From positions 2,516 to 66,515 of the forward strand of contig CAZQMO010000003.1 in the NCBI GenBank assembly GCA_964594755.1: a stretch of DNA of 64,000 nt, in the 5' to 3' direction. Position numbers and translations under genes: made by a program. The notes under the pieces were generated by a model, which saw only the letters and a list, made by a program, of their open reading frames with translations, was not told where the DNA came from and did not search any database. The DNA comes from an uncultured Candidatus Saccharibacteria bacterium (GTDB lineage Bacteria; Patescibacteriota; Doudnabacteria; UBA920). Shown here piece by piece: positions 2,292 through 53,100 of this stretch; position 1 is the stretch's first letter, and every line of letters begins with the position of its first letter.

Positions 2292-2292
2292 A

Positions 2293-3036
2293 TTATTCGG
2301 AAATGTCTCGAATGGTTACTTTGGGAAGCTGGCTCGCGTCTATGGCTGGACCAGAAGCAAAATTATAAGAATTATAGACTAACTCAATCAACTGATCAGT
2401 AGTTAGTCGCACTACTCGTAAACCACTACTTGCCAAAGTGGAAGAAATAGTATTTGTACGTTCGTCTAATTGTTTTTTTGCGCTTGCTAAATTAGCTTCA
2501 CGATCAGCAATTTGCTTGACTTTACCAGTGCCAAATAATTTTCCAAATAAACTAGTGGAAGCAGGGTTGATACTAATATCATAAGGTACAATCACATAAA
2601 AATTCTTATTCATGACATTCGCTGATTCTACCAGCCTATCGATGAACTCAATGTACTCCTGGGTCTGCATGCGTAACAGCTCATTGGTTTGCTTTTCGGC
2701 CATTACTTTAAGCTTACCCATATATTCTGCGATATCCATTTTGCGAGACTGAACTACGATCTGGATATGAAACTCCAATGAATTTAAAAATCGTTGATAG
2801 CTATAAATCAAAGCATTCTGCTCTTCTTCACTCTTTAAATCAAAGTTGGTAGAAGACACAGCTAAGATCGATCGCAGGGTTCCATCATTCATCACGATTA
2901 AATCATCTCGGATTTCCGAAAGTTTCAAAAATTGCTGAGTCGGTGTTCCTAATGATTTTTTGGTATTTGTTTGAGCCATATTAGCTTTCCCGCACCTTAA
3001 CGGAACCAAGCGAACTAAGACAAGACTAGAGATCAA
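2293..3036 (-). CDS. hypothetical protein, T4SS-cluster associated
   Basis: 247-aa ORF immediately upstream of virB4 in the same operon orientation, with a 1-nt gap. No recognisable motif. Confidence 0.5.
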   Translation of the reverse strand: MISSLVLVRLVPLRCGKANMAQTNTKKSLGTPTQQFLKLSEIRDDLIVMNDGTLRSILAVSSTNFDLKSEEEQNALIYSYQRFLNSLEFHIQIVVQSRKMDIAEYMGKLKVMAEKQTNELLRMQTQEYIEFIDRLVESANVMNKNFYVIVPYDISINPASTSLFGKLFGTGKVKQIADREANLASAKKQLDERTNTISSTLASSGLRVVRLTTDQLIELVYNSYNFASGPAIDASQLPKVTIRDISE

Positions 3037-3097
3037 TCGATATTATGTAGGTTCAAAGTTCTCTTTGGTTTGGCCTTATACGAAGGGGATTAAGGAT

Positions 3098-3634
3098 TTA
3101 ACTTTTATCTCGATTACTTTTAATTATTTGGATCAATTTGTTTTGCTCTGATTGCTGCTGTTGCAAAAGGTAATTTAGTTCCTTAATCTTAATCGCAGTT
3201 TCCTTGAGATCTTTTGGGGCATGTTGTTGTTGCTCGATCGGCACAGGGATTGTATCTTCAAAAAAATCTTTACCTTCCTTATGATAAACATACACCTTAG
3301 CCCCAAATAAATATTGAATAAAGTTCCCAGCGCTTGCATAAAGGGGGCGGCCATTAAGCTTCCCAAACACTAATGCCAACGCTGGTACACCAGTCACTGC
3401 CCCCACTGCTATGGTTATTGGTAAATTTTTACTAATCGTGTAAATCACGAAAGTAAAAGCACCTGCCCCGAACACGATTGCAAACTGTTTAAAAGTTAAG
3501 CCTGCAATAATCTTATCTTCGACATCAGTAAATTGTGGGACTGGAAACTGCATATAAATAGTGTGTAAGAAGTAGAAGGTAATTTGTAATAAGTTAAATT
3601 CCGCCTGTTTGTAAGCATTACTTATTAGTTTCAA
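3098..3634 (-). CDS. small membrane protein (VirB3/PrgI-like position and topology)
   Basis: 178 aa with two predicted TM helices (FAIVFGAGAFTFVIYTI and ITIAVGAVTGVPALALVFG), then a Q-rich C-terminus. Sits just upstream of virB4, as VirB3-like proteins do. Confidence 0.45.
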   Translation of the reverse strand: MKLISNAYKQAEFNLLQITFYFLHTIYMQFPVPQFTDVEDKIIAGLTFKQFAIVFGAGAFTFVIYTISKNLPITIAVGAVTGVPALALVFGKLNGRPLYASAGNFIQYLFGAKVYVYHKEGKDFFEDTIPVPIEQQQHAPKDLKETAIKIKELNYLLQQQQSEQNKLIQIIKSNRDKS

Positions 3635-20544: not shown

Positions 20545-23517
20545 CTAAACTTCGATTAGCCCGAGCCAAATCGCAGCGCCGTTAACACTAGCTTGGGTCT
20601 CATAATCAGCATCGACTTCCAGATTGGTCTTGATCTGATTGATGAAGGTCTTTTTACGGTCTACTAAGTTGGTTAACGCGTGAACTAATTGATCGTCAGT
20701 ACTGTTATAGTACAAATCAACTATCTGTCCGACTTTTAGACCGCTCTTCTTACGCAAATCCTGAATAGCGCGTTCCAAATCTCGAGCCACGCCTTCGGCT
20801 TTGAGCTCATCAGTAAGTTCGGTGTTCAAGGCCACCGACAAATTCCCGGCTTCCTTGCTCACCCAACCGGAACGAGAAATCAACTCAGTGTTAGTAACTT
20901 TCTTAACATTCAATTCTTCGGCAATAATCTGCTGAAGAGATTCATCTAGATTGAGTTCGTCTTCTTTGAATGAATACTGTAACTCAGCCAACGGTTGTCG
21001 TACTTTAAGATTTTGTTCTTTACGGAGTGAAAGCCCTAACTCTACGATTTGTCTAAGTGCAGTCATTTCATCCAGAATGCTCTGCCGATACTCGCGAACT
21101 TGGGTCCAAGATGACAAATGCACAGATTCTTGGCTCGATAAATCTCTATAGATGACTTCGCTCAGATACGGCATAAACGGTGCTAACATTTTACTGATCT
21201 CGACTAAGCTAAAACCAAGCACGCGCAAAGCTGTTCGAGAATCCTCTGTGCCAAGCTTAATGCGATCGCGACTACGACGCACATACCAAGTTGAAAGCTC
21301 AGTAATCAAGGCACTAATCGCCCGTCCTGCTTTGACTGTGTTGTAACTATCAAGATATTTGGTAACTTCGGCATGAGTTTCAAATAACTTTGCCAACATC
21401 CAGACATCAAGACTATGGGTAACAGTCGGTACTTCCGAACTTACTGTGTCTTTGCTGTACATACGGTAGAACTGCCAAGTGTTCCAAAAAATTAAGCTCA
21501 GCTTGCGATTCACCTCTGCTATGCCAGTTTCGGAAAAGTTTAAATCCTCCCCGACTACCACAGGACTGGTTAATAAATAGAAGCGCATCGGGTCTACGCC
21601 GTAACGCTCAATTAACAGGTTCGGGTCTTCAAAGTTCTTTTTGGATTTTGACATCTTGGCGCCATCTTCGGCCAAGACTGTTCCGGTAGTGACAACGTTG
21701 CGGAAAGGAGCTTTGTCAAAAATAATCGTGCTAAAGACATGCATGACGTAAAACCAAGCGCGAGTTTGCGGAATATATTCGGCCACAAAATCAGCAGGCA
21801 AGCGCTGTTCCAGCAAATCCTGATTCTCAAACGGCGCGTGCAATTCTGCAAACGGCATACTAGCTGATTCCACCCAGCAATCCACTACTTCTGGGATGCG
21901 AGCCATAGTACCTTCACACTTCTGACAACGAATTTTAATTTTATCTATATACGGACGATGTAAATCGAGTTGCTGTAACTCACTTGGTTTATAGTTAGGA
22001 TAAATTTCTTCAAAGTTTGTGCTTTGCGTTTTTAATTCCTCTACCGAACCAATACAAACTTTGTTATCACAATCTTCAGTCTCACACTTCCAAAACGGCA
22101 AAGCAGTGGCCCAGTAACGATTGCGGGAAATATTCCAATCCGGAGCATTCTGAATCCCTTGTGCGAATCGGCCCTGTTTAAGATGCTCAGGATACCAATT
22201 GATATCTTCATTGAGTTCTAGTAAGCGGGATTTAATCTGTTGGATATTAATAAACCATGCAGACAAAGCGGAATAATATAGAGGGGTACCGCAGCGCCAA
22301 CAGTGCGGATAACTATGGGTATAATTATGAGTTTTGTAAACTAGGTTGTTTGCGGACAACTCATCTAGCACAATCCGGTCAGCATCCTTAAAGAACTTGC
22401 CGCGCAAACTTTCTGGCGCAACATCCATGTACTCGCCTTTATTGTCCAGCATCTGCTGACGAGGTAAATTGCGGCGCTTGGCGGCGGCAAAATCTTCTTC
22501 ACCATACATAGCGGCGTTATGAACAATTCCTGTGCCGTCTTCGGTGGTTACAAAGTCCTCGATATAAATTTTATGAGCTGTATTGTTTTCATCAGTAATT
22601 ACGCCAGGGTAAAGTGGTTCGTAGGTTAAACCTTCCAAAGAACGAGCACTAACTTCGGCTTTAACTTCGTAATCACCTTCTAAGATTTCTAAACGATCTT
22701 TGGCTAAAATATATATTTCACCATTTTGCTCTACTATTACATAAGTAATGTCTGGTCCTACATTCAAGGCTGTATTACCCGGTAAAGTCCAGGGAGTAGT
22801 GGTCCAAGCCAAAGCATAAGTTAATTCATTGCTCATGAAATCTAAGATGCGTTGACCGGGTTGAAGTTTGAACTTCACAAACACAGATTCTTCAGTAACA
22901 TCTTGATAGCTGTTATCCATAGCTACCTCAAAATTAGATAGCGGGGTTTCGCAGCGACTACAATAGAGCAGCACTTTAAAATCTTCGTAGATTAAACCCT
23001 TATCCCAAACTTGTTTGATTCCCCACCAGACACTTTCCATGAAAGTTGTGTCCATGGTTTTATAAGAATTCTCGAAGTTAACCCAGCGACCCATACGCGC
23101 CACGGTCTTCCCCCATTCTTCAGCGTAAGTTAAAACGCTTTCGCGACAGGTGGCATTAAATTTATCTACACCAATTTCTTCGATTTGTTTTTTGCCAGAA
23201 ATACCCAGCTTGGCTTCTACAATGTTTTCGATTGGTAAACCGTGACAGTCCCAGCCCCAGACACGGCGTACATACTTACCTTTCATGGTTTGGTAACGAC
23301 CAATGGCATCCTTGACTGCAGAAATTAAAATATGGCCATGATGAGGCAAGCCCGTAGCAAAAGGTGGGCCATCGTAAAATACAAAGGGCGCTTTGTTTTT
23401 TGTTTGGTCTAGCGACTTCTCAAAAATATTGTTGGATTTCCAAAACTCAAGAACTGATAATTCTTGTTCATTAAAATCCGGGGCGTTTGAATGCGGTTTT
23501 TGATTCTGTTCTGACAT
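20545..23517 (-). CDS. ileS: isoleucine--tRNA ligase
   Basis: 990 aa. HIGH-class motif PFATGLPHHGH and KMSKS (AKMSKSKKN). A C-terminal zinc-finger Cys cluster is present. Confidence 0.95.
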   Translation of the reverse strand: MSEQNQKPHSNAPDFNEQELSVLEFWKSNNIFEKSLDQTKNKAPFVFYDGPPFATGLPHHGHILISAVKDAIGRYQTMKGKYVRRVWGWDCHGLPIENIVEAKLGISGKKQIEEIGVDKFNATCRESVLTYAEEWGKTVARMGRWVNFENSYKTMDTTFMESVWWGIKQVWDKGLIYEDFKVLLYCSRCETPLSNFEVAMDNSYQDVTEESVFVKFKLQPGQRILDFMSNELTYALAWTTTPWTLPGNTALNVGPDITYVIVEQNGEIYILAKDRLEILEGDYEVKAEVSARSLEGLTYEPLYPGVITDENNTAHKIYIEDFVTTEDGTGIVHNAAMYGEEDFAAAKRRNLPRQQMLDNKGEYMDVAPESLRGKFFKDADRIVLDELSANNLVYKTHNYTHSYPHCWRCGTPLYYSALSAWFINIQQIKSRLLELNEDINWYPEHLKQGRFAQGIQNAPDWNISRNRYWATALPFWKCETEDCDNKVCIGSVEELKTQSTNFEEIYPNYKPSELQQLDLHRPYIDKIKIRCQKCEGTMARIPEVVDCWVESASMPFAELHAPFENQDLLEQRLPADFVAEYIPQTRAWFYVMHVFSTIIFDKAPFRNVVTTGTVLAEDGAKMSKSKKNFEDPNLLIERYGVDPMRFYLLTSPVVVGEDLNFSETGIAEVNRKLSLIFWNTWQFYRMYSKDTVSSEVPTVTHSLDVWMLAKLFETHAEVTKYLDSYNTVKAGRAISALITELSTWYVRRSRDRIKLGTEDSRTALRVLGFSLVEISKMLAPFMPYLSEVIYRDLSSQESVHLSSWTQVREYRQSILDEMTALRQIVELGLSLRKEQNLKVRQPLAELQYSFKEDELNLDESLQQIIAEELNVKKVTNTELISRSGWVSKEAGNLSVALNTELTDELKAEGVARDLERAIQDLRKKSGLKVGQIVDLYYNSTDDQLVHALTNLVDRKKTFINQIKTNLEVDADYETQASVNGAAIWLGLIEV

Positions 23518-23540
23518 AATATTCCATTGTATATTACTTA

Positions 23541-23706
23541 CTTGTTTGAGCCAAGTTCGAGGAGCAAGCTGCGGATGGCGCGAGCCGTAGTAAAGCTACG
23601 GTGAGCGACAACGTAAAGATTGCGACAAAGAAATTGGCCAAACCCCGAAGGGGTGAGCTTGGCTGAAAGTCTGAATTTACTTCAGACTGAAGCCAGCGAA
23701 CAAGAG
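23541..23706. ncRNA. conserved structured noncoding element, copy A (between argS and ileS)
   Basis: Shares about 70% identity over roughly 100 nt with 44512..44620. Shared blocks: GTTCG, a hairpin CCGTAG-TAAAG-CTACGG followed by GTGAGC, and a near-identical 21-mer GCGACAAAGAAATtGGCCAAA. Copy A also contains CCCCGAAGGGG (a UUCG tetraloop hairpin on the minus strand). The strand of any transcript is unknown. Confidence 0.5.
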
Positions 23707-23714
23707 AGTAATAA

Positions 23715-25451
23715 TTACATTTCCTTTGGTGCCTGGACTCCTAATAAGGTGAGTCCATTGCTTAATACTGTTGCGGTAGAACGAATGATGGCAATACGGA
23801 AAAGCTGTTTCTGCTCATCGGTTTCTTTGAGAATTGGCACAGCCTCATAAAACGAGTTAAAAATTTGTGACAGCTCATAAAGATAATTACAAATCACGTT
23901 CGGCGTATAGTTGGTAGCGGCTTGTTCAACAACTTCGGCAAACTGGTTCAACTTTCGCAGCACACTGAGTTCTTGTTCACTAATTTCGTCAGGTTGAGCA
24001 ATCTGGCTATCTTCGGAAATCTGACCTTTGCGCAGAATCCCGTTGATTCGAGCGTGAGTATATTGTAAATAAGGGCCGGTATTTCCTTCAAATGATAGCG
24101 CTTTCTCCCAAGTGAATACAATGTCGCTCTTATAGTTATGGGACAGGTCAAAGTACTTGAGCGCCGCGCGCATCACCTGGCCAGCCACCTGCTCTTTTTG
24201 GGACAAAGCGGGATTCTTATCTTGAATAATCGCCAAAGCTTTTTCTTGGGCTTTGTTAATCAATTCTTTAGCGCCAATCATGGTTCCTTTGCGCGTGCTC
24301 ATCTGGCCTTCCGGAAGACTGAGAACGCCATAGGCGATATGAACTGCTTCTTCTGGCGAAGTAATGACCCCTAGTAATTCCAAAATCTTAAAGGTCTGAG
24401 CCAGGGTGTGAGTCTGGCGATTATCTACAACGTAAAGCTGCTTATCAAACCCTTCTTGCTTTCGAAAAATATAAGTTGCTAAATCGCGCAGTAAGTAAGT
24501 CGTGCCGCCGTCTCCTTTCACGACAACCGCAACACCTAAACCACGATCCTCCAAATCTACAATTTGCGCTCCTTGCGATTCCTTTAGCAAACCCTTAGCT
24601 CTGAGCATGTCCAAAACTTGAGGCATTTTGTCGGCATAAAAACTTTCTGGCCAATCATGATCAGACTTGCGGATCTCTAAATCATCATAGATAACCTTGT
24701 ACTCGCTCCAGCTCCAGTCCTTAAACTGCTGCCATAAAGCAATATTCTCCTCATCGCCCTGTTCTAGTTTTACAAACTCTTGTTTGCCTTGTTCACGCAA
24801 AGATTCATCGCCTTCCATTTCCGCATTAATCTTTATATAAAGTTTATTCAGCTCATTAATCGGATCGCTAGCAATCTGATTATCATCGCCCCACTTCTTA
24901 TAAGCTAAAATCAGCAAACCAAACTGCGTACCCCAATCGCCCAAATGGGTATCGCTCTCCACATCGTACCCCGTGAACTTCAAAATTCGAAAAATGCTGT
25001 CGCCGATGATTGCTGTGCGCAAGTGCCCCAAGTGAAGAGGCTTAGCAATGTTAGGCTGAAAATATTCAACTAAGATTTTTTTGCCAGCGCCAATATCGCT
25101 CTGCCCATAACTCTCGCCGCTTTGCTGAATCTTGCGCAAGTTATTAGCCAAATAAGATTCAGATAACCAAAAATTAAGAAACCCACCAGCTGATTCAATC
25201 TTGGAAAAAGTCTTTTGGTGATCAAGCGCAGCAACTTTTTCTGCTAACACGGCCGCAAATCCTGCCGGAGAGTCTGCCGGAGCGTTGTTAAATTTTTTAA
25301 ACAACACCATTGCGGCATTGGAAGCATAATCCCCAAAGCCAGGCTTGGGATAGGACACATCAATCAATCCCGAACCAAAAACCTCCTCTGCCTCTTGAGG
25401 AGAAATTTGCTCAACAGCTTCTTTAATTAGTGCCGAAATATAGGCTTTCAT
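23715..25451 (-). CDS. argS: arginine--tRNA ligase
   Basis: 578 aa. HIGH-like PLHLGHLR motif with ArgS-typical N-terminal and anticodon-binding arrangement. Confidence 0.95.
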   Translation of the reverse strand: MKAYISALIKEAVEQISPQEAEEVFGSGLIDVSYPKPGFGDYASNAAMVLFKKFNNAPADSPAGFAAVLAEKVAALDHQKTFSKIESAGGFLNFWLSESYLANNLRKIQQSGESYGQSDIGAGKKILVEYFQPNIAKPLHLGHLRTAIIGDSIFRILKFTGYDVESDTHLGDWGTQFGLLILAYKKWGDDNQIASDPINELNKLYIKINAEMEGDESLREQGKQEFVKLEQGDEENIALWQQFKDWSWSEYKVIYDDLEIRKSDHDWPESFYADKMPQVLDMLRAKGLLKESQGAQIVDLEDRGLGVAVVVKGDGGTTYLLRDLATYIFRKQEGFDKQLYVVDNRQTHTLAQTFKILELLGVITSPEEAVHIAYGVLSLPEGQMSTRKGTMIGAKELINKAQEKALAIIQDKNPALSQKEQVAGQVMRAALKYFDLSHNYKSDIVFTWEKALSFEGNTGPYLQYTHARINGILRKGQISEDSQIAQPDEISEQELSVLRKLNQFAEVVEQAATNYTPNVICNYLYELSQIFNSFYEAVPILKETDEQKQLFRIAIIRSTATVLSNGLTLLGVQAPKEM

Positions 25452-25748: not shown

Positions 25749-26186
25749 ATGAAATCTTTAGCCCAGAACAAGCGAGCCAAATTCGACTACGACATCAAAG
25801 ATACTTTTGATGCCGGTTTAATATTGGAAGGGCGAGAGGTTAAATCGGCAAAGGAAGGCAATATCTCGCTAGCCGGAAGCTATGTGAAAGTGTCAGCTAC
25901 TGGCGCTAGCTTAGTGAATGCCCACATTGGCCCTTATAAGTATGCGCCACAAGAAGGTTATGAACCAACCCAAAGCCGCAAGTTGTTGTTGAATAAGCGC
26001 GAACTTAATCAACTCCTAGGTAAAGAAAAAGGCACCGTAATTATTCCGCTAGAAATTTTCATTGGTCCTCGCAATCTGGTAAAGCTAAAAATCGGAGTTG
26101 GCCGCGGCCGCAAGAAAACCGACAAGCGCGAGTACATTAAAGAGCGCGATACCAAGCGCGAAGCCCGTAAGGCCACCGACCGATAA
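25749..26186 (+). CDS. smpB: SsrA-binding protein SmpB
   Basis: 145 aa. N-terminus LAQNKRAKFDY and a basic C-terminal tail (GRGRKKTDKREYIKERD) typical of SmpB. Confidence 0.9.
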   Translation: MKSLAQNKRAKFDYDIKDTFDAGLILEGREVKSAKEGNISLAGSYVKVSATGASLVNAHIGPYKYAPQEGYEPTQSRKLLLNKRELNQLLGKEKGTVIIPLEIFIGPRNLVKLKIGVGRGRKKTDKREYIKERDTKREARKATDR

Positions 26187-26202
26187 CTTGAAATAAAATT
26201 GA

Positions 26203-26227
26203 AACAGGATTTAGCAATCCTGTTTTA
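26203..26227 (+). terminator. intrinsic terminator
   Basis: AACAGGAtttagcaATCCTGTTTT. Confidence 0.6.
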
Positions 26228-26237
26228 CAATTAAACC

Positions 26238-26795
26238 ATGAAACTCAATCGCGATTTAATCTACATAACCATCATTGTCTGTTTAATCGCCGCGCTCGGC
26301 CAACTTTACTACTCTTTGGTTTGGCATCCAGCCTGGCAAGAAGCCCAAAGCCGCGAGGTACAGATTTATTATAACCGCGATGTCGCAGCCAATGAGTTAG
26401 TCATTGAGCAAATCCAACAAGCCGAAAAATTTGTATACTTTGCAATTTACACCTTTACCCGCGAAGATATTAAAGATGCTCTTATATCTGCCAAACAACG
26501 TGGCTTAGATGTTCATGGTTTAGTTGATAAAAAACAAAGCATGGAGCTACAACCCCAAGCTAAGATAATAGCAGAACTGCAAGGCGTCGGAATCCCAATT
26601 GAATTCAACGACCACAGTGCCATTATGCATCTTAAAACTTTAGTGACTGATAAAAGCTTTATTAGTGGTTCTTACAACTGGACAGCAAGCGCCACCGAGC
26701 GCAACGACGAAATTATAGAGATTGGCCGGGACGAAGAACTGCGGCGCAGCTATCAAAAATTACTAGAAACTTTGCTCCGTAAATATTCATACTAA
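26238..26795 (+). CDS. phospholipase D-like (HKD) domain protein, Nuc-like
   Basis: 185 aa with an N-terminal TM or signal segment and an HxK(x4)D motif (AIMHLKTLVTDKSFISGSYNWTASAT). Confidence 0.65.
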   Translation: MKLNRDLIYITIIVCLIAALGQLYYSLVWHPAWQEAQSREVQIYYNRDVAANELVIEQIQQAEKFVYFAIYTFTREDIKDALISAKQRGLDVHGLVDKKQSMELQPQAKIIAELQGVGIPIEFNDHSAIMHLKTLVTDKSFISGSYNWTASATERNDEIIEIGRDEELRRSYQKLLETLLRKYSY

Positions 26796-26816
26796 CTAGT
26801 GTGATATAATACAGCA

Positions 26817-27095
26817 ATGGACACTATTACACTCACAGATTTATTTTTCATCGTAACTGGTATCGCCGTAATTTTTATTACAGCTTTTATTGTCATCGCG
26901 CTAATCTACTTCATTATGTTCTTGCGCACCTTAAAAGCAATTGCTGACCAAGCCAGCCGAGCAGGAAAATTCATTGTTGATGATCTTGGTGAATTAAGTA
27001 AAAACATTAAACAAGAAGGTTTTAAGTTAGGTTCGTTCCTAAAATTTATTTTCAGGATGAAATCTAAAGTTAAACAAGCTAAAGGAAAGAAGTAA
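26817..27095 (+). CDS. small membrane protein
   Basis: 92 aa with a TM helix (FFIVTGIAVIFITAFIVIALIYFIMFL). Its stop overlaps the next start. Confidence 0.5.
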   Translation: MDTITLTDLFFIVTGIAVIFITAFIVIALIYFIMFLRTLKAIADQASRAGKFIVDDLGELSKNIKQEGFKLGSFLKFIFRMKSKVKQAKGKK

Positions 27096-27096
27096 T

Positions 27097-27522
27097 ATGA
27101 AAAAATCACAAAAACAAGCTATCGCAGTTGGCGCCGGGGTTGCAGCCATCGCTGCAGCAGCAACTGCTGCCTATTTTCTGACTGGTAAGAACGCTAAAAA
27201 TCGCAAAAAAATAGCCAAGTGGGCAAAAGACATGCAGGCTGATGTAGCCAAAGAAGTCGGCAAAGCCAGTAAGCTTACTAAAGCTACCTACAGCAAAACT
27301 ATTGACCAGGTTGCCAAGCACTACAAGAATCTCAAAAATGTTGATACCCCTGAATTAGCTCAACTTGTTGCTGAACTTAAGGCACATTGGGATGTCATCA
27401 ACGAAGAAATCCAAAGTGCGAGTAAGAGCGTAAAGAAAGTTGTTCCAAAGGCAGTAAGATCAGTTGCCAAAAAAGTAAAGGTTGCAAGCACCAAGAAACC
27501 TGTTAAGAAATCTCGCCGCTAA
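27097..27522 (+). CDS. Lys/Ala-rich membrane-anchored protein
   Basis: 141 aa with an N-terminal TM helix (AIAVGAGVAAIAAAATAAYFL), then a K/A-rich helical region. Confidence 0.5.
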   Translation: MKKSQKQAIAVGAGVAAIAAAATAAYFLTGKNAKNRKKIAKWAKDMQADVAKEVGKASKLTKATYSKTIDQVAKHYKNLKNVDTPELAQLVAELKAHWDVINEEIQSASKSVKKVVPKAVRSVAKKVKVASTKKPVKKSRR

Positions 27523-27526
27523 ATTC

Positions 27527-27556
27527 AAACTCCCGAAAGGGAGTTTCTTTTTTTTA
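27527..27556 (+). terminator. intrinsic terminator
   Basis: AAACTCCCgaaaGGGAGTTTcttttttttt. Confidence 0.7.
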
Positions 27557-27583
27557 CTTTCACTGACAACCAAGTAGTATGCC

Positions 27584-27612
27584 TTGACAAAACCCTTATT
27601 TTACCGTACAAT
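27584..27612 (+). promoter_or_regulatory. sigma70-type promoter for ssrA
   Basis: TTGACA (27584..27589), a 17-nt spacer, then TACAAT (27607..27612). The tmRNA 5' end lies 9 nt downstream. Confidence 0.6.
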
Positions 27613-27621
27613 ATTGGCTAC

Positions 27622-28004
27622 CGGGGATGCCGGATTTTGACAGAACTTTGACATCATTTCATATACAAGCCGAGCCAGCTTGCAAGCTCGTAAATCTTAC
27701 AAGCATTCATACGTGCTAACGCATGGAACAAGGTCGTAGCAGCATTTTCTGCTGACTACGCACCTGCTGTAGCCTAACTTAGGTGAAAGCGCAGTCCTGT
27801 TGTCTACTCCGGCCACAGAGTCACTGCTTTATTAGGAGTTATAGCTGCGTCGTTTGATTAACGCGACTCAGCCGAATAGTTGTTAATCAACCTTTAGTTT
27901 AGTTGTCCGTTGTTAGACTAAAGGCACTTAAACGGACTAAGCTTGTGACCAATGAGATGGTGAACCAGTTTTGGACGCGGGTTTAACTCCCGCCATCTCC
28001 ACCA
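27622..28004 (+). ncRNA. ssrA: transfer-messenger RNA (tmRNA)
   Basis: 5' GGGGATG pairs with 3' CATCTCC-A-CCA, including G3:U70. The 3' end GGACGCGGGTTTAACTCCCGCCATCTCCACCA is nearly identical to E. coli tmRNA. An internal tag-like frame ends ...AAFSADYAPAVA-TAA. Flanked by a consensus promoter and a terminator. Confidence 0.85.
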
Positions 28005-36768: not shown

Positions 36769-37395
36769 TTAGCGTTGTGGCTGAGTAGCTGGAGCCTGTT
36801 GCTGAGGCTGAGTAGCTGGAGCCTGTTGCTGAGGCTGAGTAGCTGGAGCCTGTTGCTGTTGACCAGACTGCTGATTGTTAGCTGGCGGATTCTTTTGGTA
36901 TTCACGAATCGCTTGCATAACTCGACCGTCTTCTTTGATATCTTCATAGAACAAAATTTGTTCTCGATTAATCTTCATTTCATCAACTGGTCCGTGAAGT
37001 TCTTGACCAAGCTTTACCAAAGAAAGTTGAGGTTGCTGTTGCTGTGCACCTTCTGGTTGTGAACCTTGCAAAGGTGGCTGGGTTACTTGAAGATAATAAA
37101 TATCGTTCAAAGTAGCGTAAGTAGCGCTCACATCTGACAACTTACCAAAGTATACTTGTCCATTAGTCAAGAACACTGCTTGATACCCAGATAAAGTTTC
37201 TTCTTGTGCTGTACCAGTCTGAGCTTCATCCTGGCTAGGGAATAAACTGTCACGGAACAATACTGCTCCAATAATTACCAATAATACTACTACTGCCAAG
37301 ATAATCCAAGGCATGTTGTTACGAGAACCATTACGAGAACCCATAGGATTCATTTGGCGTTCAGGGCCGCCACCAACCCGAATATCTTCATTCAT
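36769..37395 (-). CDS. membrane-anchored protein with C-terminal Q/P/A-rich tandem repeats
   Basis: 208 aa with an N-terminal TM helix (MPWIILAVVVLLVIIGAVLF). The C-terminus is (QQQAPATQP)x3. Confidence 0.6.
   Translation of the reverse strand: MNEDIRVGGGPERQMNPMGSRNGSRNNMPWIILAVVVLLVIIGAVLFRDSLFPSQDEAQTGTAQEETLSGYQAVFLTNGQVYFGKLSDVSATYATLNDIYYLQVTQPPLQGSQPEGAQQQQPQLSLVKLGQELHGPVDEMKINREQILFYEDIKEDGRVMQAIREYQKNPPANNQQSGQQQQAPATQPQQQAPATQPQQQAPATQPQR
36775..36860. repeat. 3 x 27-nt perfect tandem repeat inside CDS (encodes QQQAPATQP x3)
   Basis: GGCTGAGTAGCTGGAGCCTGTTGCTGA repeated three times head-to-tail. Confidence 0.85.
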
Positions 37396-38940: not shown

Positions 38941-39304
38941 AGCTTGATGTTTATTTCTTACCTTTAACGTTGGAATAATTATAACATATTTGTTAACTTA
39001 AAGTGAAACCTTTCCGAAAATCTTTTTTGCTGCAATTTACGAGCTTTCGGCTATCTTGGCCAAAGAATTTTTCCGCTTAGTTTCCAACTAAACGTCAAAA
39101 TTTGTTTGACCAAGCTAGCTCGAAAGTAGTAAATTTCGCTAAAAAAAATATTTTCGGGCAAGCCTTCACAGAAGAATTGTCAACTGGTTTTACCCGCACA
39201 CCTTTACTGATGATTATATAAAGAAAAGGTACTGAGATCAGTCAATTGTCATTAGTTTAACCTAGCTTTAGGTTGGAAAAGGTGTGCTGGTAAACTTTTT
39301 ATGC

Positions 39305-39334
39305 TTGACGGAATCAAAATTTAAAATGTATGAT
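39305..39334 (+). promoter_or_regulatory. sigma70-type promoter
   Basis: TTGACG, an 18-nt spacer ending in TG, then TATGAT, 33 nt before the ATG at 39367. Confidence 0.5.
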
Positions 39335-39366
39335 GAATTTACGCGCAATTAACTAAGATTTTATTC

Positions 39367-40329: not shown

Positions 40330-41364
40330 TTACCAGTCCAAGGTGCCACCGGTTTGATATTCGATGACACGGGTTTCAAAGAAATTCTTTTCTTTATTAA
40401 GATCCACTGCTTCGCTCATCCAAGGGAATGGATTGGCAACGTTGAATTGAGGTGCTAAACCAATACTGTTAAGACGACGGTCAGCAATGTGTTCAATGTA
40501 CTGCTTAAAGCCTTCTGCATTCATGCCAAAGATGCCTTTCGGGAATACGGTTTGAGCAAACGTGTACTCAAGGACAGCAGCTTCTTTTACTAAATCGATG
40601 ATGTGCTGTTGGAATTCCGGGGTCCAAATTTCCGGTTGCTCTTCGCGGATAGTATTAATGAGCCAAATTCCAAAGTTAAGGTGCATAGATTCGTCGCGCA
40701 TAATGTATTGAATCTGCTCAGCACTACCAACCATTTTCTTCTGGCGTTGGAAACCAAACATTACGGCAAACGCGCTGTAGAAGAAAATCCCTTCCATGAT
40801 CAGCGAAAAGACCACTATATTTTCGACAAACTTTTGGTCAGCTTCTAAAGTGCCGGTCTTGAAGTCAGGGTTAAAGATACCTTCGTTAAAGGTTAAGACA
40901 AAGGAAGCTTTGTTATAAATAGAATCAATCTCGCGGTACATGTTAAAGATTTTACCTTCGTCCATGCCCAAGCTTTCGACAATGTACTGATAAGCGTGAG
41001 TATGGATGGCTTCTTCAAAAGCTTGGCGAAGCAAATACATGCGGACTTCCGGAGAAGTGACGTGCTTGTAAGCAGCCATCACAATATTATTAGCAGCGAT
41101 TGAATCAGCTGTGGTAAAAAATCCTAACACGGTTTCAAAAGCTTGGCGTTCGTCCGCTGATAATACAGTTGAACTCTTCCACTGCTCAATGTCGAGTTGC
41201 ATGCCGATTTCGGTCGGTAGCCAGTGATTAGCATTGGCAGCTAGATAAGACTCCCAAGCAAACGTGTGCTTCATTGGGTAAAGCTGAATAACGTCAGCGT
41301 CTTTTCCATTAATGACGCGGCGATCGTTGATATTTACTCTTTGGTTGGTTTTCTGGATTGGCAT
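40330..41364 (-). CDS. nrdB: ribonucleotide reductase class I beta (R2) subunit
   Basis: 344 aa. Ferritin-like diiron ligand motifs (FEEAIHTHAY, a second ExxH) and a tyrosyl-radical region. Confidence 0.9.
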   Translation of the reverse strand: MPIQKTNQRVNINDRRVINGKDADVIQLYPMKHTFAWESYLAANANHWLPTEIGMQLDIEQWKSSTVLSADERQAFETVLGFFTTADSIAANNIVMAAYKHVTSPEVRMYLLRQAFEEAIHTHAYQYIVESLGMDEGKIFNMYREIDSIYNKASFVLTFNEGIFNPDFKTGTLEADQKFVENIVVFSLIMEGIFFYSAFAVMFGFQRQKKMVGSAEQIQYIMRDESMHLNFGIWLINTIREEQPEIWTPEFQQHIIDLVKEAAVLEYTFAQTVFPKGIFGMNAEGFKQYIEHIADRRLNSIGLAPQFNVANPFPWMSEAVDLNKEKNFFETRVIEYQTGGTLDW

Positions 41365-41424
41365 ATGTTTCTTACTTAATTTCTTAGGGTGTTACATTTT
41401 GAGTAAAACAAAATTTCACGCCCT

Positions 41425-44400
41425 CTATTGGCAGGCTTCACAGTCTGGATCTTCCAAACGGCATACTTTAAAGTCAGTTTGTTGGAGAACCCTAGTCATG
41501 GGCTTTTCTTCAGTAACTGGAGTAGCAGATTCGGTAGCGACAGCTTCAGTGGAATTTAAACCAAGCTTCTCGGCTAAATTCACTTCTTGGGTAGAAACCT
41601 GAGTGACTGTCTCGGTTACAGACACAGGGGCCATACCAGGCGCTGAGGCGGTCACAGAGGCAGTTTCAGACACAACTTCTGTTACGGTAGCCATTACTGG
41701 GACTTGCTGTGGCTGAGGCTGTTTTTGCTCGACTTCTTGAGCAACTGCATCTTCGGTTGATTGCTGACCGCGTAAGTGGGTTTTACCAAATTCAGAAGTA
41801 TTTACAGTAGACTTTTCAACTTGAGAAGCAGCTAAAGTACGGAGATAGTAAGTGGTCTTTACGCCCATGTCCCAAGCGTACAAGTAGATGTCATTAATAT
41901 CTTTACCAGACTTACCGCCGTAGAAAATGTTGAGCGACTGAGACTGATCAATCCACTTACCACGGTAAGCTGCAGCTTTAATTAACCAACGCGCATCAAT
42001 CTCGAACACTTCTTTATATTTATCTTTAAGATCTTGTGGCACTTCTGGAATCTCTGTGACCCGGCCATCATAAAACTTTAGTTTAGAGAGCATGTCGTCA
42101 TTCCAGAGTCCTCGATCTTTGAGTTCCTTCACTAGATAATGGTTCACGACTACGAAGTCACCAGAGATGTTAGCTTTAACGTAAATGTTTTTGTAAATTG
42201 GTTCGATTGATGGGATGGCACCAGAAATGTTAGAGATAGTAGCAGTCGGAGCAATCGCCATAGTGTTAGAGTTGCGCATGCCGTACTCTTTGATCGCTTC
42301 CCGAACTGGGGTCCAATCCATTTTACCGGTACGAGAAACAGGGATTTCGGTACCACGTTCGCGTTCGAGCAAAGCAATGGTATCCACTGGCAAAATACCT
42401 CGGTCCCATTTGCTACCCCGGAAGGATGCATAAGCGCCACGTTCCTTTGCTAATTGGGTTGATGCCAAAATCGCGTAGTAAGCAATAGCTTCCTGGCTTT
42501 CATCGGCCAACTGCACCATTTGATCGCTATCAAAATTCACGTTCATTTGGTAAAGCATGTCTTGGAAACCCATTACACCAAGACCAACTGGGCGGTGCTT
42601 GAGGTTAGAATTCTTACCCTCGATAGTTGGGTAGAAGTTAAGGTCAATTACGTTATCAAGCATGCGCATCGCGACAGTTACAGTGTACTGAATCTTTTCT
42701 AGATCCATCTGACCTTGGCGCACGTGGCGGGCTAAGTTAATTGAACCTAAGTTACAAACCGCGGTTTCTTCAGCAGAGGTGTTGAGAGTAATTTCAGTAC
42801 AAAGGTTAGAGCTGTGCACTACCCCAACGTGATCTTGCGGACTGCGAATATTGGATGGGTCTTTGAAGGTTACCCAAGGGTGACCGGTTTCAAAGAGCAT
42901 GGTCAACATTTTCTTCCATAAATCCTTGGCTGGAATTTGGCGGAACAAGCGCAATCCTCCAGCTAAACCTTGCTGTTCGTATTGTTCATAACGCTTTTTG
43001 AACTCCTGCCCATAAATTTCGTGAAGTTCTGGAGTTTCATCCGGTGAGAACAATGACCACATTCCCCCTTCTTTCACGCGTTGCATAAATAAATCAGGGA
43101 TCCAATTGGCAATGTTCATATCGTGAGTTCGGCGACGTTCATCACCAGTGTTTTTGCGAAGCTCTAAGAAGTCTTCGATGTCCCAGTGCCAGGTTTCCAT
43201 GTAAGCGCAAGTTGCGCCACGGCGGCGACCACTGCGATTAATCGCTACCGTTGTGTCGTTAGCAACTTTCAAGAAAGGAATCACACCTTGACTTTCGATA
43301 CCTACCCGCTTAATTAGCGCGCCAGTACCACGAAGCTTAGTCCAGTCATTAGCAACCCCACCAGCCCACTTAGACATTTGCGCGTTGTCACCCAAACACT
43401 TGTAGATGTGGTGTAAATCGTCTTCGATAGTGGTGAGATAACAAGAAGACAACTGAGAATGAATTGTGCCGGCATGAAACAAGGTTGGCGAAGAAGGCAC
43501 AAAGTGCAAAGTTGAAGTAATCCTGTAAAATTCAACCGCGCGTGCTTCTTTGTCTTGTTCATTAAGTGCTACCCCCATGGCCACACGCATCCAAAACATT
43601 TGTGGAGTTTCTAAAACCTGCTTGGTTTGTGGATTCTTAGTAAGATAACGATCGTATAAAGTTTGTACACCGAGATAATTGAGCAAGTTATCCCGCTCTA
43701 ACACTAACTCGGAAGCAATATACTCTAAATTAAAAGTTAACATGCGAGGATCCAAACGACCAATAGAAACAGCTTCTTGAATTCGGTGGATGAAGGCTTG
43801 GCGAATCTGAGTTTCTAGTTTCTCTGGAGTAAAGTCAATCTGATCACTCCCAATAACTTCCTTGTAAATGCGGTTAGCCATGGCGCGAGCTGCGACATAA
43901 GAATAGGCAGGATCTTTTTCGATATAGGCGCGAAGCACCATAATTAGAGCTCGTTCGATCTCTGCGGTGGTGATGTCTTCGTATAGTTCTAGACGAACCT
44001 GATTGAGAACAGTCGGTGTATCAATATCGGTAGCGTAGTCACCAAGAATAGCTTCTAGGCTCTTTTTTAACTTTTCAGCAGAGAACGCTTCTTTGCGGCC
44101 ATCTCGCTTGGTAATCATTAATTGATTAGCCTCAACTTTTTGCAAAACTTCTGCTTTTTGCTGTTCGCGTACTTTGGTGTGTTCGTAGCGATAAATGATG
44201 TAAGATTTGGCGACTTCAAACAAACCTTGCTCCATCAATTTACGCTCAACTGTGTTCTGGACATCTTCTACTCCTGGAACCCGATCCACAAAAGTCTTGT
44301 CTAAATCAGCAATAACAGCTTTGGCGATTTCGCGGGTTAAAGTCTGATTTGTCTTGAAGTTAACTTCGACATAAGCTTTACTGATTGCGACTTCTATTTT

Positions 44401-44469
44401 GACAGGATCAAAATCGACAATTTGGCCGCTACGCTTTTTGATTTGCAGGAGGTTGTTTGATTGGATCAT
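41425..44469 (-). CDS. nrdA: ribonucleotide reductase class I alpha (R1) subunit with N-terminal ATP-cone domains
   Basis: 1014 aa. Active-site SNLCTEI, a C-terminal redox Cys pair (DPDCEACQ), and N-terminal ATP-cone repeats. Confidence 0.95.
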   Translation of the reverse strand: MIQSNNLLQIKKRSGQIVDFDPVKIEVAISKAYVEVNFKTNQTLTREIAKAVIADLDKTFVDRVPGVEDVQNTVERKLMEQGLFEVAKSYIIYRYEHTKVREQQKAEVLQKVEANQLMITKRDGRKEAFSAEKLKKSLEAILGDYATDIDTPTVLNQVRLELYEDITTAEIERALIMVLRAYIEKDPAYSYVAARAMANRIYKEVIGSDQIDFTPEKLETQIRQAFIHRIQEAVSIGRLDPRMLTFNLEYIASELVLERDNLLNYLGVQTLYDRYLTKNPQTKQVLETPQMFWMRVAMGVALNEQDKEARAVEFYRITSTLHFVPSSPTLFHAGTIHSQLSSCYLTTIEDDLHHIYKCLGDNAQMSKWAGGVANDWTKLRGTGALIKRVGIESQGVIPFLKVANDTTVAINRSGRRRGATCAYMETWHWDIEDFLELRKNTGDERRRTHDMNIANWIPDLFMQRVKEGGMWSLFSPDETPELHEIYGQEFKKRYEQYEQQGLAGGLRLFRQIPAKDLWKKMLTMLFETGHPWVTFKDPSNIRSPQDHVGVVHSSNLCTEITLNTSAEETAVCNLGSINLARHVRQGQMDLEKIQYTVTVAMRMLDNVIDLNFYPTIEGKNSNLKHRPVGLGVMGFQDMLYQMNVNFDSDQMVQLADESQEAIAYYAILASTQLAKERGAYASFRGSKWDRGILPVDTIALLERERGTEIPVSRTGKMDWTPVREAIKEYGMRNSNTMAIAPTATISNISGAIPSIEPIYKNIYVKANISGDFVVVNHYLVKELKDRGLWNDDMLSKLKFYDGRVTEIPEVPQDLKDKYKEVFEIDARWLIKAAAYRGKWIDQSQSLNIFYGGKSGKDINDIYLYAWDMGVKTTYYLRTLAASQVEKSTVNTSEFGKTHLRGQQSTEDAVAQEVEQKQPQPQQVPVMATVTEVVSETASVTASAPGMAPVSVTETVTQVSTQEVNLAEKLGLNSTEAVATESATPVTEEKPMTRVLQQTDFKVCRLEDPDCEACQ

Positions 44470-44511
44470 GGTTGTTAGATTTTTAGTTAGTTATTGTTTG
44501 TTATTTTATAT

Positions 44512-44620
44512 AGACTTTCAGATTGGTGTCGAGTTCGCGAAGCCAGCGAACACTGAGTGAAGCGTAATGAAAGTTACGGTGAGCAAGGAGCGGAGCTGGC
44601 GACAAAGAAATCGGCCAAAT
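44512..44620. ncRNA. conserved structured noncoding element, copy B (between nrdR and nrdA)
   Basis: Paralogue of 23541..23706. Shares GTTCG, a hairpin CGTAA-TGAAAG-TTACG followed by GTGAGC, and the 21-mer GGCGACAAAGAAATCGGCCAAA. The hairpin differs from copy A by a compensatory AG/CT to AA/TT change. Confidence 0.5.
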
Positions 44621-44635
44621 CTGGAAGTCTCGTGT

Positions 44636-45127
44636 TCAAAGCTTGAGTATCTCTTGTTTGAACTCATGGATATCTTCGAACTGCCGGTAAACGCTGGCGA
44701 AACGGATGTAGGCGACTTTGTCGACCTTGCGGATAACCTTCATCACGATTTCTCCAATTTGTTCGCTGGTGATTTCACCACCATTCTTTCGCTGAATTTC
44801 TTGTTCAACTTCGGACACAACTTTGCGGAACATGTAATCAGTTAAGTTGCGTTTTTCGAAAGCCCGTCTGAGACCTCGTTCCAGTTTCTCTCTAGAGTAA
44901 GGTTGCTTAGTACCGTCTCGCTTAGTAACTGCTAAGTCGAGAATTTCGATTTGCTCATAAGTAGAGAACCGGAAGTTGCACTTTTCACATTCACGCCTTC
45001 GCCGGATGGCCCCAGCTTCTTCTACAGGCCGGGAATCAACTACTTTAGTATCAATATTTAAACATTTGGGGCATTTCATGTATTCAAAGGGTAAAGAGTA
45101 GAAGGAAGTACTAAAATCCTTGTTCAA
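44636..45127 (-). CDS. nrdR: transcriptional repressor NrdR
   Basis: 163 aa. N-terminal Zn-ribbon (MKCPKCLNIDTKVVDSRP...CEKCNFRFSTYE) and an ATP-cone. Confidence 0.9.
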   Translation of the reverse strand: MNKDFSTSFYSLPFEYMKCPKCLNIDTKVVDSRPVEEAGAIRRRRECEKCNFRFSTYEQIEILDLAVTKRDGTKQPYSREKLERGLRRAFEKRNLTDYMFRKVVSEVEQEIQRKNGGEITSEQIGEIVMKVIRKVDKVAYIRFASVYRQFEDIHEFKQEILKL

Positions 45128-50848: not shown

Positions 50849-51100
50849 ATGTATACCGTTTATGCAATCTACAATCGAAAACATGATAAAATCTACATTG
50901 GACAAACTCAGAACCTCAAAGAAAGGTTAAGGTTGCACCAATCCAAAATTTTCTTAGGATACACGTCACGGTACGATGGTAAATGGGAACTGATTTACCG
51001 TGAGTCATCTGCGACCAGACAGGATGCCTTGATAAGAGAAAAACAATTGAAAAGTTACCGAGGTAGGGTATTTATCAAACAATTTATTAATCGGGAGTAG
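50849..51100 (+). CDS. GIY-YIG domain nuclease (small, UPF0213/YhbQ-like)
   Basis: 83 aa. GIY-YIG motif YTVYAIYNRKHDKIYIGQTQNLKERLRLH. The last three codons (NRE-stop) are encoded by the 5' end of tRNA-Asn. Confidence 0.75.
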   Translation: MYTVYAIYNRKHDKIYIGQTQNLKERLRLHQSKIFLGYTSRYDGKWELIYRESSATRQDALIREKQLKSYRGRVFIKQFINRE

Positions 51101-53097: not shown

Positions 53098-53100
53098 ATT

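What the first reader, a model, noticed from the sequence alone, without database searches (positions are those of the whole stretch)
23541..23706. Paralogous conserved noncoding element (copy A) in the argS-ileS intergenic region
About 100 nt share roughly 70% identity with 44512..44620, which lies upstream of nrdA. Both include a perfect 20/21 match, GCGACAAAGAAAT(T/C)GGCCAAA. A hairpin next to GTGAGC differs between copies by a compensatory change that keeps it paired: CCGTAG/CTACGG in A and CGTAA/TTACG in B. That pattern argues for RNA-level structure rather than coincidence. The element is not a T-box, since no AGGGTGGNACCGCG motif is present. A second shared module, GAAGCCAGCGAACA, occurs at opposite ends of the two copies, suggesting modular or permuted architecture.
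Basis: seen in the sequence. Interest (0 to 1): 0.7.

Follow-up and report, generated by a model that had tools for sequence, protein, structure and literature searches.

The report
Mobile hairpin repeat, not a regulator
The two similar noncoding stretches are copies of a roughly 120-base hairpin-forming mobile DNA repeat that has inserted between housekeeping genes of this small (Saccharibacteria-like) genome; it is not a shared control element for ileS and nrdA.

Summary
Both copies exist, share a 20/21 core, and are far beyond chance. A model built from homologues finds exactly two full copies in the window: A at 23534-23655 and B at 44512-44632, both on the + strand.

Across 42 copies from candidate-phyla-radiation bacteria, Vulcanimicrobiota and unnamed GC-rich lineages, the element is a rod-like hairpin. 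It has a conserved asymmetric internal loop (GCGAA / GACAAA) and strong covariation: 91.5% of cells paired versus 64% in shuffles, and 37 of 42 pairs with double changes. G-U pairs outnumber A-C 98:14, so one strand folds. In the window that strand is antisense to ileS and nrdA.

The element is not a regulator of those genes.
- In close relatives, argS and ileS are 1 nt apart and nrdR-nrdA 25 nt apart. Both window copies are lineage-specific insertions.
- Other intergenic gaps are filled or empty in different relatives.
- Copies occur in both orientations next to unrelated genes.
- In GC-rich lineages the repeat is a tail-to-tail doublet inside 28-33 bp terminal inverted repeats.

Best reading: a new family of REPIN/MITE-like structured mobile repeats. 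The mobilising enzyme is unknown, and whether the folded form is RNA or single-stranded DNA is unresolved.

The parts
23534..23655 (+). Copy A of the hairpin repeat (rod). The conserved core runs from GAGCCAAG (23549) to GGCCAAA (23642).
   Evidence: cmsearch gives 69.6 bits (model R1) and 88.0 bits, E 7e-26 (model R2, filters off). The fold of 23530-23714 on the + strand is -78.6 kcal/mol, z -9.4, versus -64.3 for the minus strand.
23518..23714 (.). The whole 197-nt argS|ileS spacer, which is the inserted segment. It contains an outer stem (23532-23548 with 23697-23713), rod A, the hairpin CCCCGAAGGGG (23643-23653) and remnants of a second copy.
   Evidence: In relatives with 93%, 92% and 77% ArgRS identity (L133-L136), the argS stop and the ileS ATG are 1 nt apart (..ATGTAA A ATGTCAGAA..). 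The outer stem comes from the fold.
23663..23702 (+). Remnants of a second, B-like copy. CTGAAAGTCT (23663-23672) is the reverse complement of B 44512-44521. The hairpin AGTCTGAA/TTCAGACT follows. GAAGCCAGCGAACA (23689-23702) equals B 44539-44552.
   Evidence: Exact matches. Reading them as remnants of a copy is an inference.
44512..44632 (+). Copy B of the hairpin repeat. The closing stem 44513-44525 pairs with 44618-44630.
   Evidence: cmsearch gives 123.5 bits (R1) and 110.8 bits, E 3e-33 (R2). The + strand fold is -57.9 kcal/mol versus -42.8 for the minus strand.
44470..44635 (.). The 166-nt nrdR|nrdA spacer that holds insertion B.
   Evidence: The same spacer is 25 nt with no element in L130/L131 (NrdR 95% identical). 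In L126/L127/L132 it is filled by a different subfamily copy that is 63% identical to B.
23622..23642 (+). Conserved 21-mer of copy A. It forms the 3' strand of the internal loop (GACAAA) plus the 3' strands of helices GAA and UUGGC.
44599..44619 (+). Conserved 21-mer of copy B, with the same structural role as in A.
23526..23554 (-). Promoter-like site facing ileS. The -35 TTGGCT lies inside the element end; 17 nt on, the -10 TACAAT also lies in the inserted segment. Low confidence.
   Evidence: Consensus scan found 1 site against 0.7 expected. Family-wide, only about 5 of 44 copies score >=8/12.
44503..44532 (-). Promoter-like site facing nrdA: -35 TCGACA inside the element end, 18 nt, then -10 TAAAAT. 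Low confidence.
   Evidence: Consensus scan found 1 site against 0.6 expected.

Best explanation
Copies A and B belong to a dispersed family of non-coding repeats, about 100-125 nt long, that form hairpins and behave as small non-autonomous mobile DNA. The closest known analogues are REPINs and structured MITEs.

Anatomy. One strand folds into a rod made of the following, from base to tip:
- a variable closing stem;
- helices AUUUG/CAAAU, GCCAA/UUGGC and UUC/GAA;
- a conserved asymmetric internal loop (GCGAA opposite GACAAA);
- a covarying 6-bp helix;
- a helix with tandem G.A pairs;
- an apical hairpin (..GUA/UAC..).

Behaviour. The element lands in the very short spacers between genes, often directly against a stop codon, in either orientation. 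It is gained and lost between closely related genomes.

Shown:
- repetition;
- conserved strand-specific structure;
- insertion polymorphism at five sites;
- a doublet form with terminal inverted repeats in other lineages.

Inferred:
- The unit that is copied is recognised through its folded single strand rather than through double-stranded terminal sequences. This is because the termini covary instead of being conserved.
- An enzyme acting on folded single-stranded DNA, such as a HUH/Y1 transposase (as for REP/RAYT and IS200/IS605) or another structure-specific recombinase supplied in trans, is the most likely motor.

Consequences in the window:
- The insertion split the formerly abutting argS-ileS pair.
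- It lengthened the nrdR-nrdA spacer.
- It placed stable hairpins, and possibly -35-like hexamers, in front of ileS and nrdA.
For: Repetition and breadth:
- There are 13 true homologues among 73 pattern hits in species-representative genomes.
- There are 31 model hits in metagenome loci.
- Copies lacking the search pattern were found by the model alone.
- Genome GC ranges from 0.26 to 0.67.
- Named hosts are Saccharibacteria, Doudna-, Zambryski- and Yanofskybacteria, and Vulcanimicrobiaceae.

Structure:
- Single-sequence folds agree with one another.
- On 42 copies, 91.5% of cells are paired versus 64.4% in shuffles and 34-42% in slid controls.
- 37 of 42 pairs show double-sided changes. The covariation score is 0.598 versus 0.172, with 0 of 500 shuffles reaching it.
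- The core helix UUC/GAA becomes UGC/GCA in L126.

Strand:
- G-U 98 versus A-C 14 in paired cells.
- Model scores are about 124 bits on one strand versus about 34 on the other.

Mobility:
- argS|ileS is 1 nt in L133-L136 versus 197 nt in the window.
- nrdR|nrdA is 25 nt and empty in L130/L131. It is filled by B in the window and by a different subfamily in L126/L127/L132.
- B is 83% identical to L037, which sits elsewhere, but only 63% identical to the copy at its own position in the relative.
- nrdA|nrdB is filled in L126/L127 and empty in the window.
- MOFRL|2-Hacid_dh is filled in L128/L129 and empty in the window, L124 and L126.
- L099 has four copies in four consecutive gaps of lepB-hisS-HIT-..-yqeY-ftsA. 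These gaps are tight or empty in the syntenic L056.

Repeat unit in other lineages:
- Units of 273-314 nt carry 28-33 bp terminal inverted repeats and two tail-to-tail rods.
- They are inserted at different sites, for example upstream of accC and eno.

Context:
- Both orientations occur, with 16 opposite/opposite and 9 same/same cases.
- The element's 3' end lies within -13..+4 nt of a convergent stop codon in 10 copies.

Analogue: REPINs have two conserved arms, a variable spacer that keeps the hairpin through compensatory changes, and extragenic dispersal (PMC3116915).
Against: - No transposase of any kind lies in the window. Pfam over all 55 ORFs found only a large serine recombinase at 51127-52848.
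- None was seen next to any copy, so the motor is unidentified.
- Target-site duplications are not demonstrable. TA is frequent at both ends but is self-complementary, and only single CA..CA and AC..AC cases exist.
- Copy number is low: 2 in 64 kb, and 0-2 per 20 kb in relatives.
- The interior core is conserved across phyla while the termini vary. This is the reverse of a classical MITE and is also what a functional RNA would show.
- Filled and empty sites could in principle reflect repeated precise loss rather than gain.
Confidence: 0.75

Rival explanations
1. A family of stand-alone small RNA genes, or an RNA module carried by the repeat. The plus-strand rod would be transcribed from its own promoter and act as RNA, for example as a protein-binding, antisense or self-processing RNA. 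Its spread would be secondary.
For: - Covariation is strong and one strand folds.
- Unpaired loop nucleotides are conserved from 26% to 67% GC.
- G.U positions are conserved and tandem G.A pairs are present.
- The closing stem covaries like that of an RNA gene.
- Some copies are preceded by -10-like boxes (L024, L066) or followed by a terminator-like hairpin (L056).
Against: - No promoter or terminator is consistent across copies.
- In the window, the space between the rod's 5' end and the divergent start codon is 16-42 nt.
- Sites are filled or empty between genomes whose flanking proteins are 92-95% identical.
- Four copies sit within one operon in L099.
- There are no expression data.
Confidence: 0.15
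2. A classical MITE mobilised by a DDE transposase (IS630/Tc1-mariner-like or IS5-like) that binds double-stranded terminal inverted repeats and duplicates TA or TNA.
For: - GC-rich lineages have perfect 28-33 bp terminal inverted repeats.
- Their flanks are compatible with TA/TTA/TAA duplication.
- TA|GAAC..GTTC|TA ends occur in several solo copies.
- The element has no coding capacity and shows insertion polymorphism.
Against: - Terminal sequences differ between copies of one genome yet stay complementary: L099 copies, A versus B, and L084 versus L087 with 7 compensated positions.
- The conserved part is internal.
- The G-U versus A-C asymmetry is not expected if the element were recognised as double-stranded DNA.
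- No autonomous partner was found.
Confidence: 0.08
3. A cis-regulatory leader RNA (riboswitch, T-box-like or attenuator) shared by ileS and nrdA.
For: Both copies lie directly upstream of large essential genes. Both are structured.
Against: - The strand that folds is antisense to both genes.
- The element is absent from the same spacers in close relatives.
- Homologues flank unrelated genes in either orientation.
- There is no Rfam match.
Confidence: 0.02

Closest known systems
[quoted passage not shown]
   Same: Both are hairpins of about 100-120 nt with two conserved arms separated by a spacer whose pairing is kept by compensatory changes. Both are extragenic, dispersed and non-coding, and are predicted to fold in ssDNA or mRNA (PMC3116915). 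The doublet organisation in GC-rich lineages recalls inverted REP pairs.
   Different: The arms are not themselves short REP palindromes. No GTAG/CGTC tag sits at the foot. No RAYT was found in the window and none was searched for genome-wide. Copy number is far lower. The core is conserved across phyla, whereas REP sequences are lineage-specific (own knowledge).
Structured bacterial MITEs (Correia/NEMIS, ERIC/IRU, RUP, bcr1, Rickettsia palindromic elements)
   Same: Both are small, non-coding and inverted-repeat bounded. Both insert in intergenic spacers of operons in either orientation, fold into long hairpins, vary in presence between strains, and can carry outward promoter elements (own knowledge; reviews PMC3184786 and PMC2229807 listed).
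   Different: Here the termini vary and the interior asymmetric loop is conserved. The fold is strand-specific. The family spans several phyla. No partner IS is known.
IS200/IS605 ends and their ORF-less derivatives (PATEs)
   Same: Recognition of imperfect hairpins on one DNA strand by a HUH enzyme would explain both the covariation and the G.T asymmetry (own knowledge; PMC6006769 listed).
   Different: Those elements have two small subterminal hairpins on the same strand and no inverted-repeat symmetry. Here there is one long rod, or two rods on opposite strands. The folded strand lies on the C-rich strand in 26 of 34 copies, and the window's + strand has negative GC skew throughout, as a lagging strand typically does. 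On that reading the folded strand would be the leading-strand template, which is not the IS608 preference.
Integron attC sites
   Same: Both are strand-specific folded recombination sites of 57-141 nt, with an unpaired central spacer, extrahelical bases and a variable terminal structure. Both lie directly after the stop codon of the upstream ORF, with the folded strand antisense to it (own knowledge).
   Different: There are no RYYYAAC/GTTRRRY boxes and no integrase or cassette array. The flanking genes are core genes in conserved synteny, and only the rod, not gene plus rod, is gained or lost.
T-box and other aminoacyl-tRNA synthetase leaders
   Same: The position is upstream of ileS.
   Different: The strand is wrong. 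There is no T-box motif or Rfam match. The element is absent in relatives.

Membership tests
REPIN / REP-RAYT system | Hairpin made of two conserved inverted arms and a variable spacer, with compensatory changes | tested here: met
   The arms GAGCCAAGUUCGCGAAGC and GCGACAAAGAAAUUGGCC are conserved. The apical part varies but stays paired.
REPIN / REP-RAYT system | Each arm is a short REP palindrome with a GTAG or CGTC tag | tested here: not met
   The alignments show no conserved GTAG/CGTC at the foot. The arms pair with each other, not with themselves.
REPIN / REP-RAYT system | Cognate RAYT (Y1/HUH transposase) gene in the same genome | tested here: inconclusive
   No Y1_Tnp or other transposase appears among the 55 ORFs of the 64-kb window. 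The rest of the genome and the other carriers could not be searched.
MITE | Terminal inverted repeats, small size, no coding capacity | tested here: met
   The closing stem is 9-17 bp in solo copies. Doublet units have 28-33 bp perfect inverted repeats. No conserved ORF is present.
MITE | Target-site duplication | tested here: inconclusive
   TA at both ends in several copies, one CA..CA, one AC..AC, and TTA/TAA in doublets. TA is self-complementary and cannot be told from stem extension. Spacers of filled and empty sites are too diverged to align.
MITE | Presence/absence polymorphism at orthologous sites | tested here: met
   Five sites show it: argS|ileS, nrdR|nrdA, nrdA|nrdB, MOFRL|2-Hacid_dh, and the gaps of the lepB-hisS-HIT-..-yqeY-ftsA operon of L099.
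MITE | Autonomous IS with the same termini | not tested
No ORF-carrying version was seen in the loci held.
Any described RNA family (Rfam 15) | Covariance-model match at or above the gathering score | tested here: not met
   Only tmRNA and tRNA matched in the window. At E<=10 there were only sub-threshold hits, e.g. group-II-D1D4-7 at 14.4 bits against 34 required.
T-box leader | Stem I/specifier, T-box sequence, sense orientation upstream of an aaRS gene | tested here: not met
   No Rfam T-box hit. The folded strand is antisense to ileS. The spacer is absent in relatives.
Integron attC | R''/R' boxes (RYYYAAC / GTTRRRY) and a cassette array next to intI | tested here: not met
   The consensus lacks these boxes. 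The neighbours are core genes, and no integrase lies beside the copies.

The most novel reading that the evidence does not exclude
The rod could be the cis-acting substrate (as folded single-stranded DNA) or the RNA component of a structure-specific mobilisation or processing system that has not been described. On this reading the conserved asymmetric loop GCGAA/GACAAA is a recognition or catalytic site. That would explain why the interior, not the termini, is conserved from candidate-phyla-radiation bacteria to Vulcanimicrobiota. Possibilities include a new class of HUH- or recombinase-dependent hairpin element, or a self-processing RNA that spreads.
Probability: 0.2. Interest if true: 0.8.

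Novelty: new member of a known kind. Interest (0 to 1): 0.5.

Why it matters
- It prevents a misreading. These intergenic 'conserved structured elements' next to ileS and nrdA are not riboswitch-like regulators.
- It documents an active, or recently active, small mobile repeat in ultra-small Saccharibacteria-type genomes, which are usually thought poor in mobile DNA.
- The repeat breaks translationally coupled gene pairs (argS-ileS) and varies between near-identical strains. It is therefore a useful strain marker and a source of regulatory change.
- The deep conservation of an internal asymmetric loop, the strand-specific fold and the variable termini point to a structure-recognising partner that is still unknown. 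The covariance model built here makes that partner searchable by co-occurrence.

Tried and rejected
- Rfam at gathering score and at E<=10 on both regions gave nothing meaningful. The best hit was group-II-D1D4-7 at 14.4 bits, taken as chance.
- tRNA and tmRNA scan: neither region is involved.
- BLASTN of copy B against the plasmid and phage collections found no match.
- The IMG/VR pattern scan gave 3 hits, none confirmed by the model.
- Own-promoter idea for the plus-strand rod: upstream regions show no box at a fixed distance.
- Outward hybrid-promoter idea: it fits A, B, L039, L099 (2687) and L098 only, so it is not a family property.
- Target-site duplication analysis was inconclusive.
- Conserved neighbour-gene search: there are only local syntenies. 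RNR genes recur (B, L052, L025, L054, L126), but as neighbours of polymorphic insertions, not as a regulon.
- Integron attC, K-turn, hammerhead, hairpin-ribozyme and SRP/6S resemblances were considered from memory. Each was dropped because its defining motif is absent from the consensus.
- Literature searches for a description of such an element in Patescibacteria or Saccharibacteria found none.
- The exact source record of the window could not be retrieved. The 100% ArgRS match (P0121) is not on record for contig look-up.

Full report
**Observation**

Both stretches are present as described.
- The 21-mer GCGACAAAGAAATYGGCCAAA occurs only at 23622-23642 and 44599-44619. That is 2 matches at up to 3 mismatches, with 0.01 expected by chance.
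- The 14-mer GAAGCCAGCGAACA occurs at 23689 and 44539.
- The two intergenic regions align at 70% column identity. The model-defined elements are 65% identical.
- Pfam confirms the neighbours: IleRS (20545-23517), ArgRS (23715-25451), NrdA with two ATP-cones (41425-44469), NrdR (44636-45127) and NrdB (40330-41364). All are on the minus strand.
- Rfam finds only tmRNA and tRNA-Asn in the window. It finds nothing above noise in the two regions at E<=10.

**Structure**

Each copy folds as a long imperfect hairpin. The plus strand is much more stable than the minus strand:
- A: -78.6 versus -64.3 kcal/mol.
- B: -57.9 versus -42.8 kcal/mol.

A pattern scan of one genome per species returned 73 loci. 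In 13 of them the whole element, not just the pattern, is present. The hosts are Saccharibacteria, Doudna-, Zambryski- and Yanofskybacteria, a Vulcanimicrobiaceae genome and two unnamed bacteria.

Independent single-sequence folds of 15 copies give the same rod. From base to tip it has:
- a variable closing stem;
- AUUUG/CAAAU, then a bulged A;
- GCCAA/UUGGC, then a G.A mismatch;
- UUC/GAA;
- a conserved 5x6 internal loop, GCGAA opposite GACAAA;
- a 6-bp helix;
- a helix with two tandem G.A pairs, which are Watson-Crick pairs in L025/L052;
- an apical hairpin.

I built a covariance model from five copies and a second from 42 copies. These found further copies that lack the search pattern. A two-part pattern scan of metagenomes added 31 model hits.

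Covariation on 42 distinct copies:
- 91.5% of cells are paired, versus 64.4% in shuffles and 34-42% when partners are slid.
- 37 of 42 pairs show changes on both sides.
- The covariation score is 0.598 versus 0.172, and 0 of 500 shuffles reach it.

The alignment was fitted to the model, which favours the structure. However, the slid controls and the independent folds agree with it. Even the core helix covaries: UUC/GAA becomes UGC/GCA in L126.

**Which strand folds**

In paired cells, G-U outnumbers A-C by 98 to 14. The model scores about 124 bits on one strand and about 34 on the other. The folded strand is therefore the strand of the 21-mer, which is the plus strand in the window and antisense to ileS and nrdA. 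The asymmetry holds in copies that are antisense to their neighbours, so it belongs to the element and not to the host mRNA.

**It is not a regulator of ileS or nrdA**

- In relatives with ArgRS 93%, 92% and 77% identical (L133-L136), the argS stop and the ileS start are 1 nt apart (..ATGTAA A ATGTCAGAA..). The window has 197 nt at exactly that junction.
- In the closest NrdR relatives (95%, L130/L131), the nrdR-nrdA spacer is 25 nt with no element. In the window it is 166 nt with copy B.
- In L126/L127/L132 (93-94%), the same spacer holds a copy of another subfamily. That copy is 63% identical to B, while B is 83% identical to a copy located elsewhere in L037.
- The nrdA-nrdB gap is filled in L126/L127 and empty in the window.
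- The gap between the glycerate-kinase-like gene and the 2-hydroxyacid dehydrogenase gene is filled in L128/L129. It is empty in the window, L124 and L126.
- L099 carries four copies in four consecutive gaps of lepB-hisS-HIT-..-yqeY-ftsA. These gaps are tight in the syntenic L056.

Across 47 copies both orientations occur, with 16 opposite/opposite and 9 same/same cases. In 10 copies the element's 3' end lies within -13..+4 nt of the stop codon of a convergent gene.

**The repeat unit in other lineages**

In two GC-rich metagenomic lineages, and in L017 and L107, the rod is one half of a larger unit.
- The units measured (L123, L084) are 273-314 nt long.
- In those two lineages it is bounded by perfect 28-33 bp terminal inverted repeats.
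- It contains two tail-to-tail rods of different classes.
- The units are inserted at different places, for example upstream of accC and eno.
- The outer repeats of L084 and L087 differ at about 7 positions, all compensated.

Copy A has a comparable layout: an outer stem (23532-23548 with 23697-23713) encloses the rod and two small hairpins. The sequence after the rod holds two exact pieces of a B-like 5' arm in opposite orientations, CTGAAAGTCT and GAAGCCAGCGAACA. That reading is an inference.

**Mechanism**

Shown: the element is repeated, structured on one strand, and gained or lost between close relatives.

Inferred: the termini differ between copies, even within one genome, yet remain complementary, while the interior loop is conserved. 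Recognition is therefore more likely to act on a folded single strand than on double-stranded end sequences. This is the logic of REP/REPIN-RAYT and IS200/IS605 (PMC3116915; PMC6006769 listed).

The motor is unknown. None of the 55 ORFs of the window is a transposase. There is only a large serine recombinase beside tRNA-Asn.

Target duplications are suggestive (TA, and single CA..CA and AC..AC cases) but unproven.

The folded strand lies on the locally C-rich strand in 26 of 34 copies. The window's plus strand has negative GC skew throughout. This bias cannot be separated from the bias against the gene-sense strand, and copies within one locus are not independent.

Whether the folded form that matters is single-stranded DNA or an RNA remains open.

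**Side effects in the window**

On the minus strand, both copies provide a -35-like hexamer at the element end with a well-spaced -10 facing the downstream gene:
- TTGGCT/TACAAT before ileS, almost leaderless.
- TCGACA/TAAAAT before nrdA.

Only about 5 of 44 family members show this, so it is a local possibility and not a family function.

**Novelty**

There is no Rfam family. There is no match in the plasmid, phage or IMG/VR collections. Three literature searches found no description. The kind of element, a small structured palindromic mobile repeat, is well known. This family, its conserved asymmetric loop and its spread across phyla appear undescribed.

Noticed in passing
window 39025-39142 (-): A third rod-like palindrome lies in the 426-nt divergent spacer 38941-39366. 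It folds at -47.5 kcal/mol (z -7.5) on the minus strand and contains CUUGGUCAAA/UUUGGCCAAG. It is a weak hit to model R2 (26.3 bits, E about 8e-6) but lacks the GACAAA loop. It may be a distant relative or another repeat family.
   Followed up: partly
window 41387-41425 (+): A small hairpin (..GTGAAATTTTG..CAAAATGTAAC..) lies in the 60-nt nrdA|nrdB gap. It is a weak model hit (12.4 bits, E 0.28) aligned as a rod with its interior deleted. The same gap holds a full copy in L126/L127. It may be a relic of a lost copy.
   Followed up: partly
window 50849-58573: tRNA-Asn (51091-51165) is flanked by a GIY-YIG protein gene (50849-51097) and a large serine recombinase (51127-52848, -). A DNA methylase (54666-56336) and a type III restriction helicase subunit (56342-58573) follow. 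This looks like an integrated element carrying a restriction-modification system.
   Followed up: no
window 450-3634 (-): VirB4/TraG-like ATPase and PrgI-like genes are present, forming a type IV secretion-like cluster at the start of the window.
   Followed up: no
window 36776-36858: Three tandem copies of a 27-nt unit (TGAGGCTGAGTAGCTGGAGCCTGTTGC) lie inside the ORF 36772-37395 (-), which has no Pfam match.
   Followed up: no
window 25749-28004: smpB (25749-26183) and tmRNA (27623-28004, tag ANAWNKVVAAFSADYAPAVA) lie about 1.4 kb apart on the + strand, next to the argS-ileS pair.
   Followed up: no
L124 10448-10646; L128 10448-10584 and 13648-13830: In other relatives the same nrdR|nrdA and nrdA|nrdB spacers hold different long palindromes or hairpins that the model does not recognise. 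One has a GAGCG..GAAAG..CGCGAGC flavour. Intergenic spacers of these genomes seem to be a general landing zone for hairpin repeats.
   Followed up: partly
L099 1901-5137: Four copies on one strand sit in four consecutive gaps of a housekeeping operon (lepB, hisS, HIT, small ORF, yqeY, ftsA), each abutting the stop codon of the upstream gene.
   Followed up: yes
window 23584-23608 and homologues: The apical module GAGCCGUAn..nUACGGUGAG, with a conserved G.U pair, resembles the lower helix of group II intron domain V (recollection only). The only Rfam signal is a sub-threshold D1-D4 hit of 14.4 bits.
   Followed up: partly
L124 13696-14232: A 178-aa ORF without a Pfam hit sits between nrdA and nrdB in one relative. 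In the window and in L126 these two genes are adjacent.
   Followed up: no
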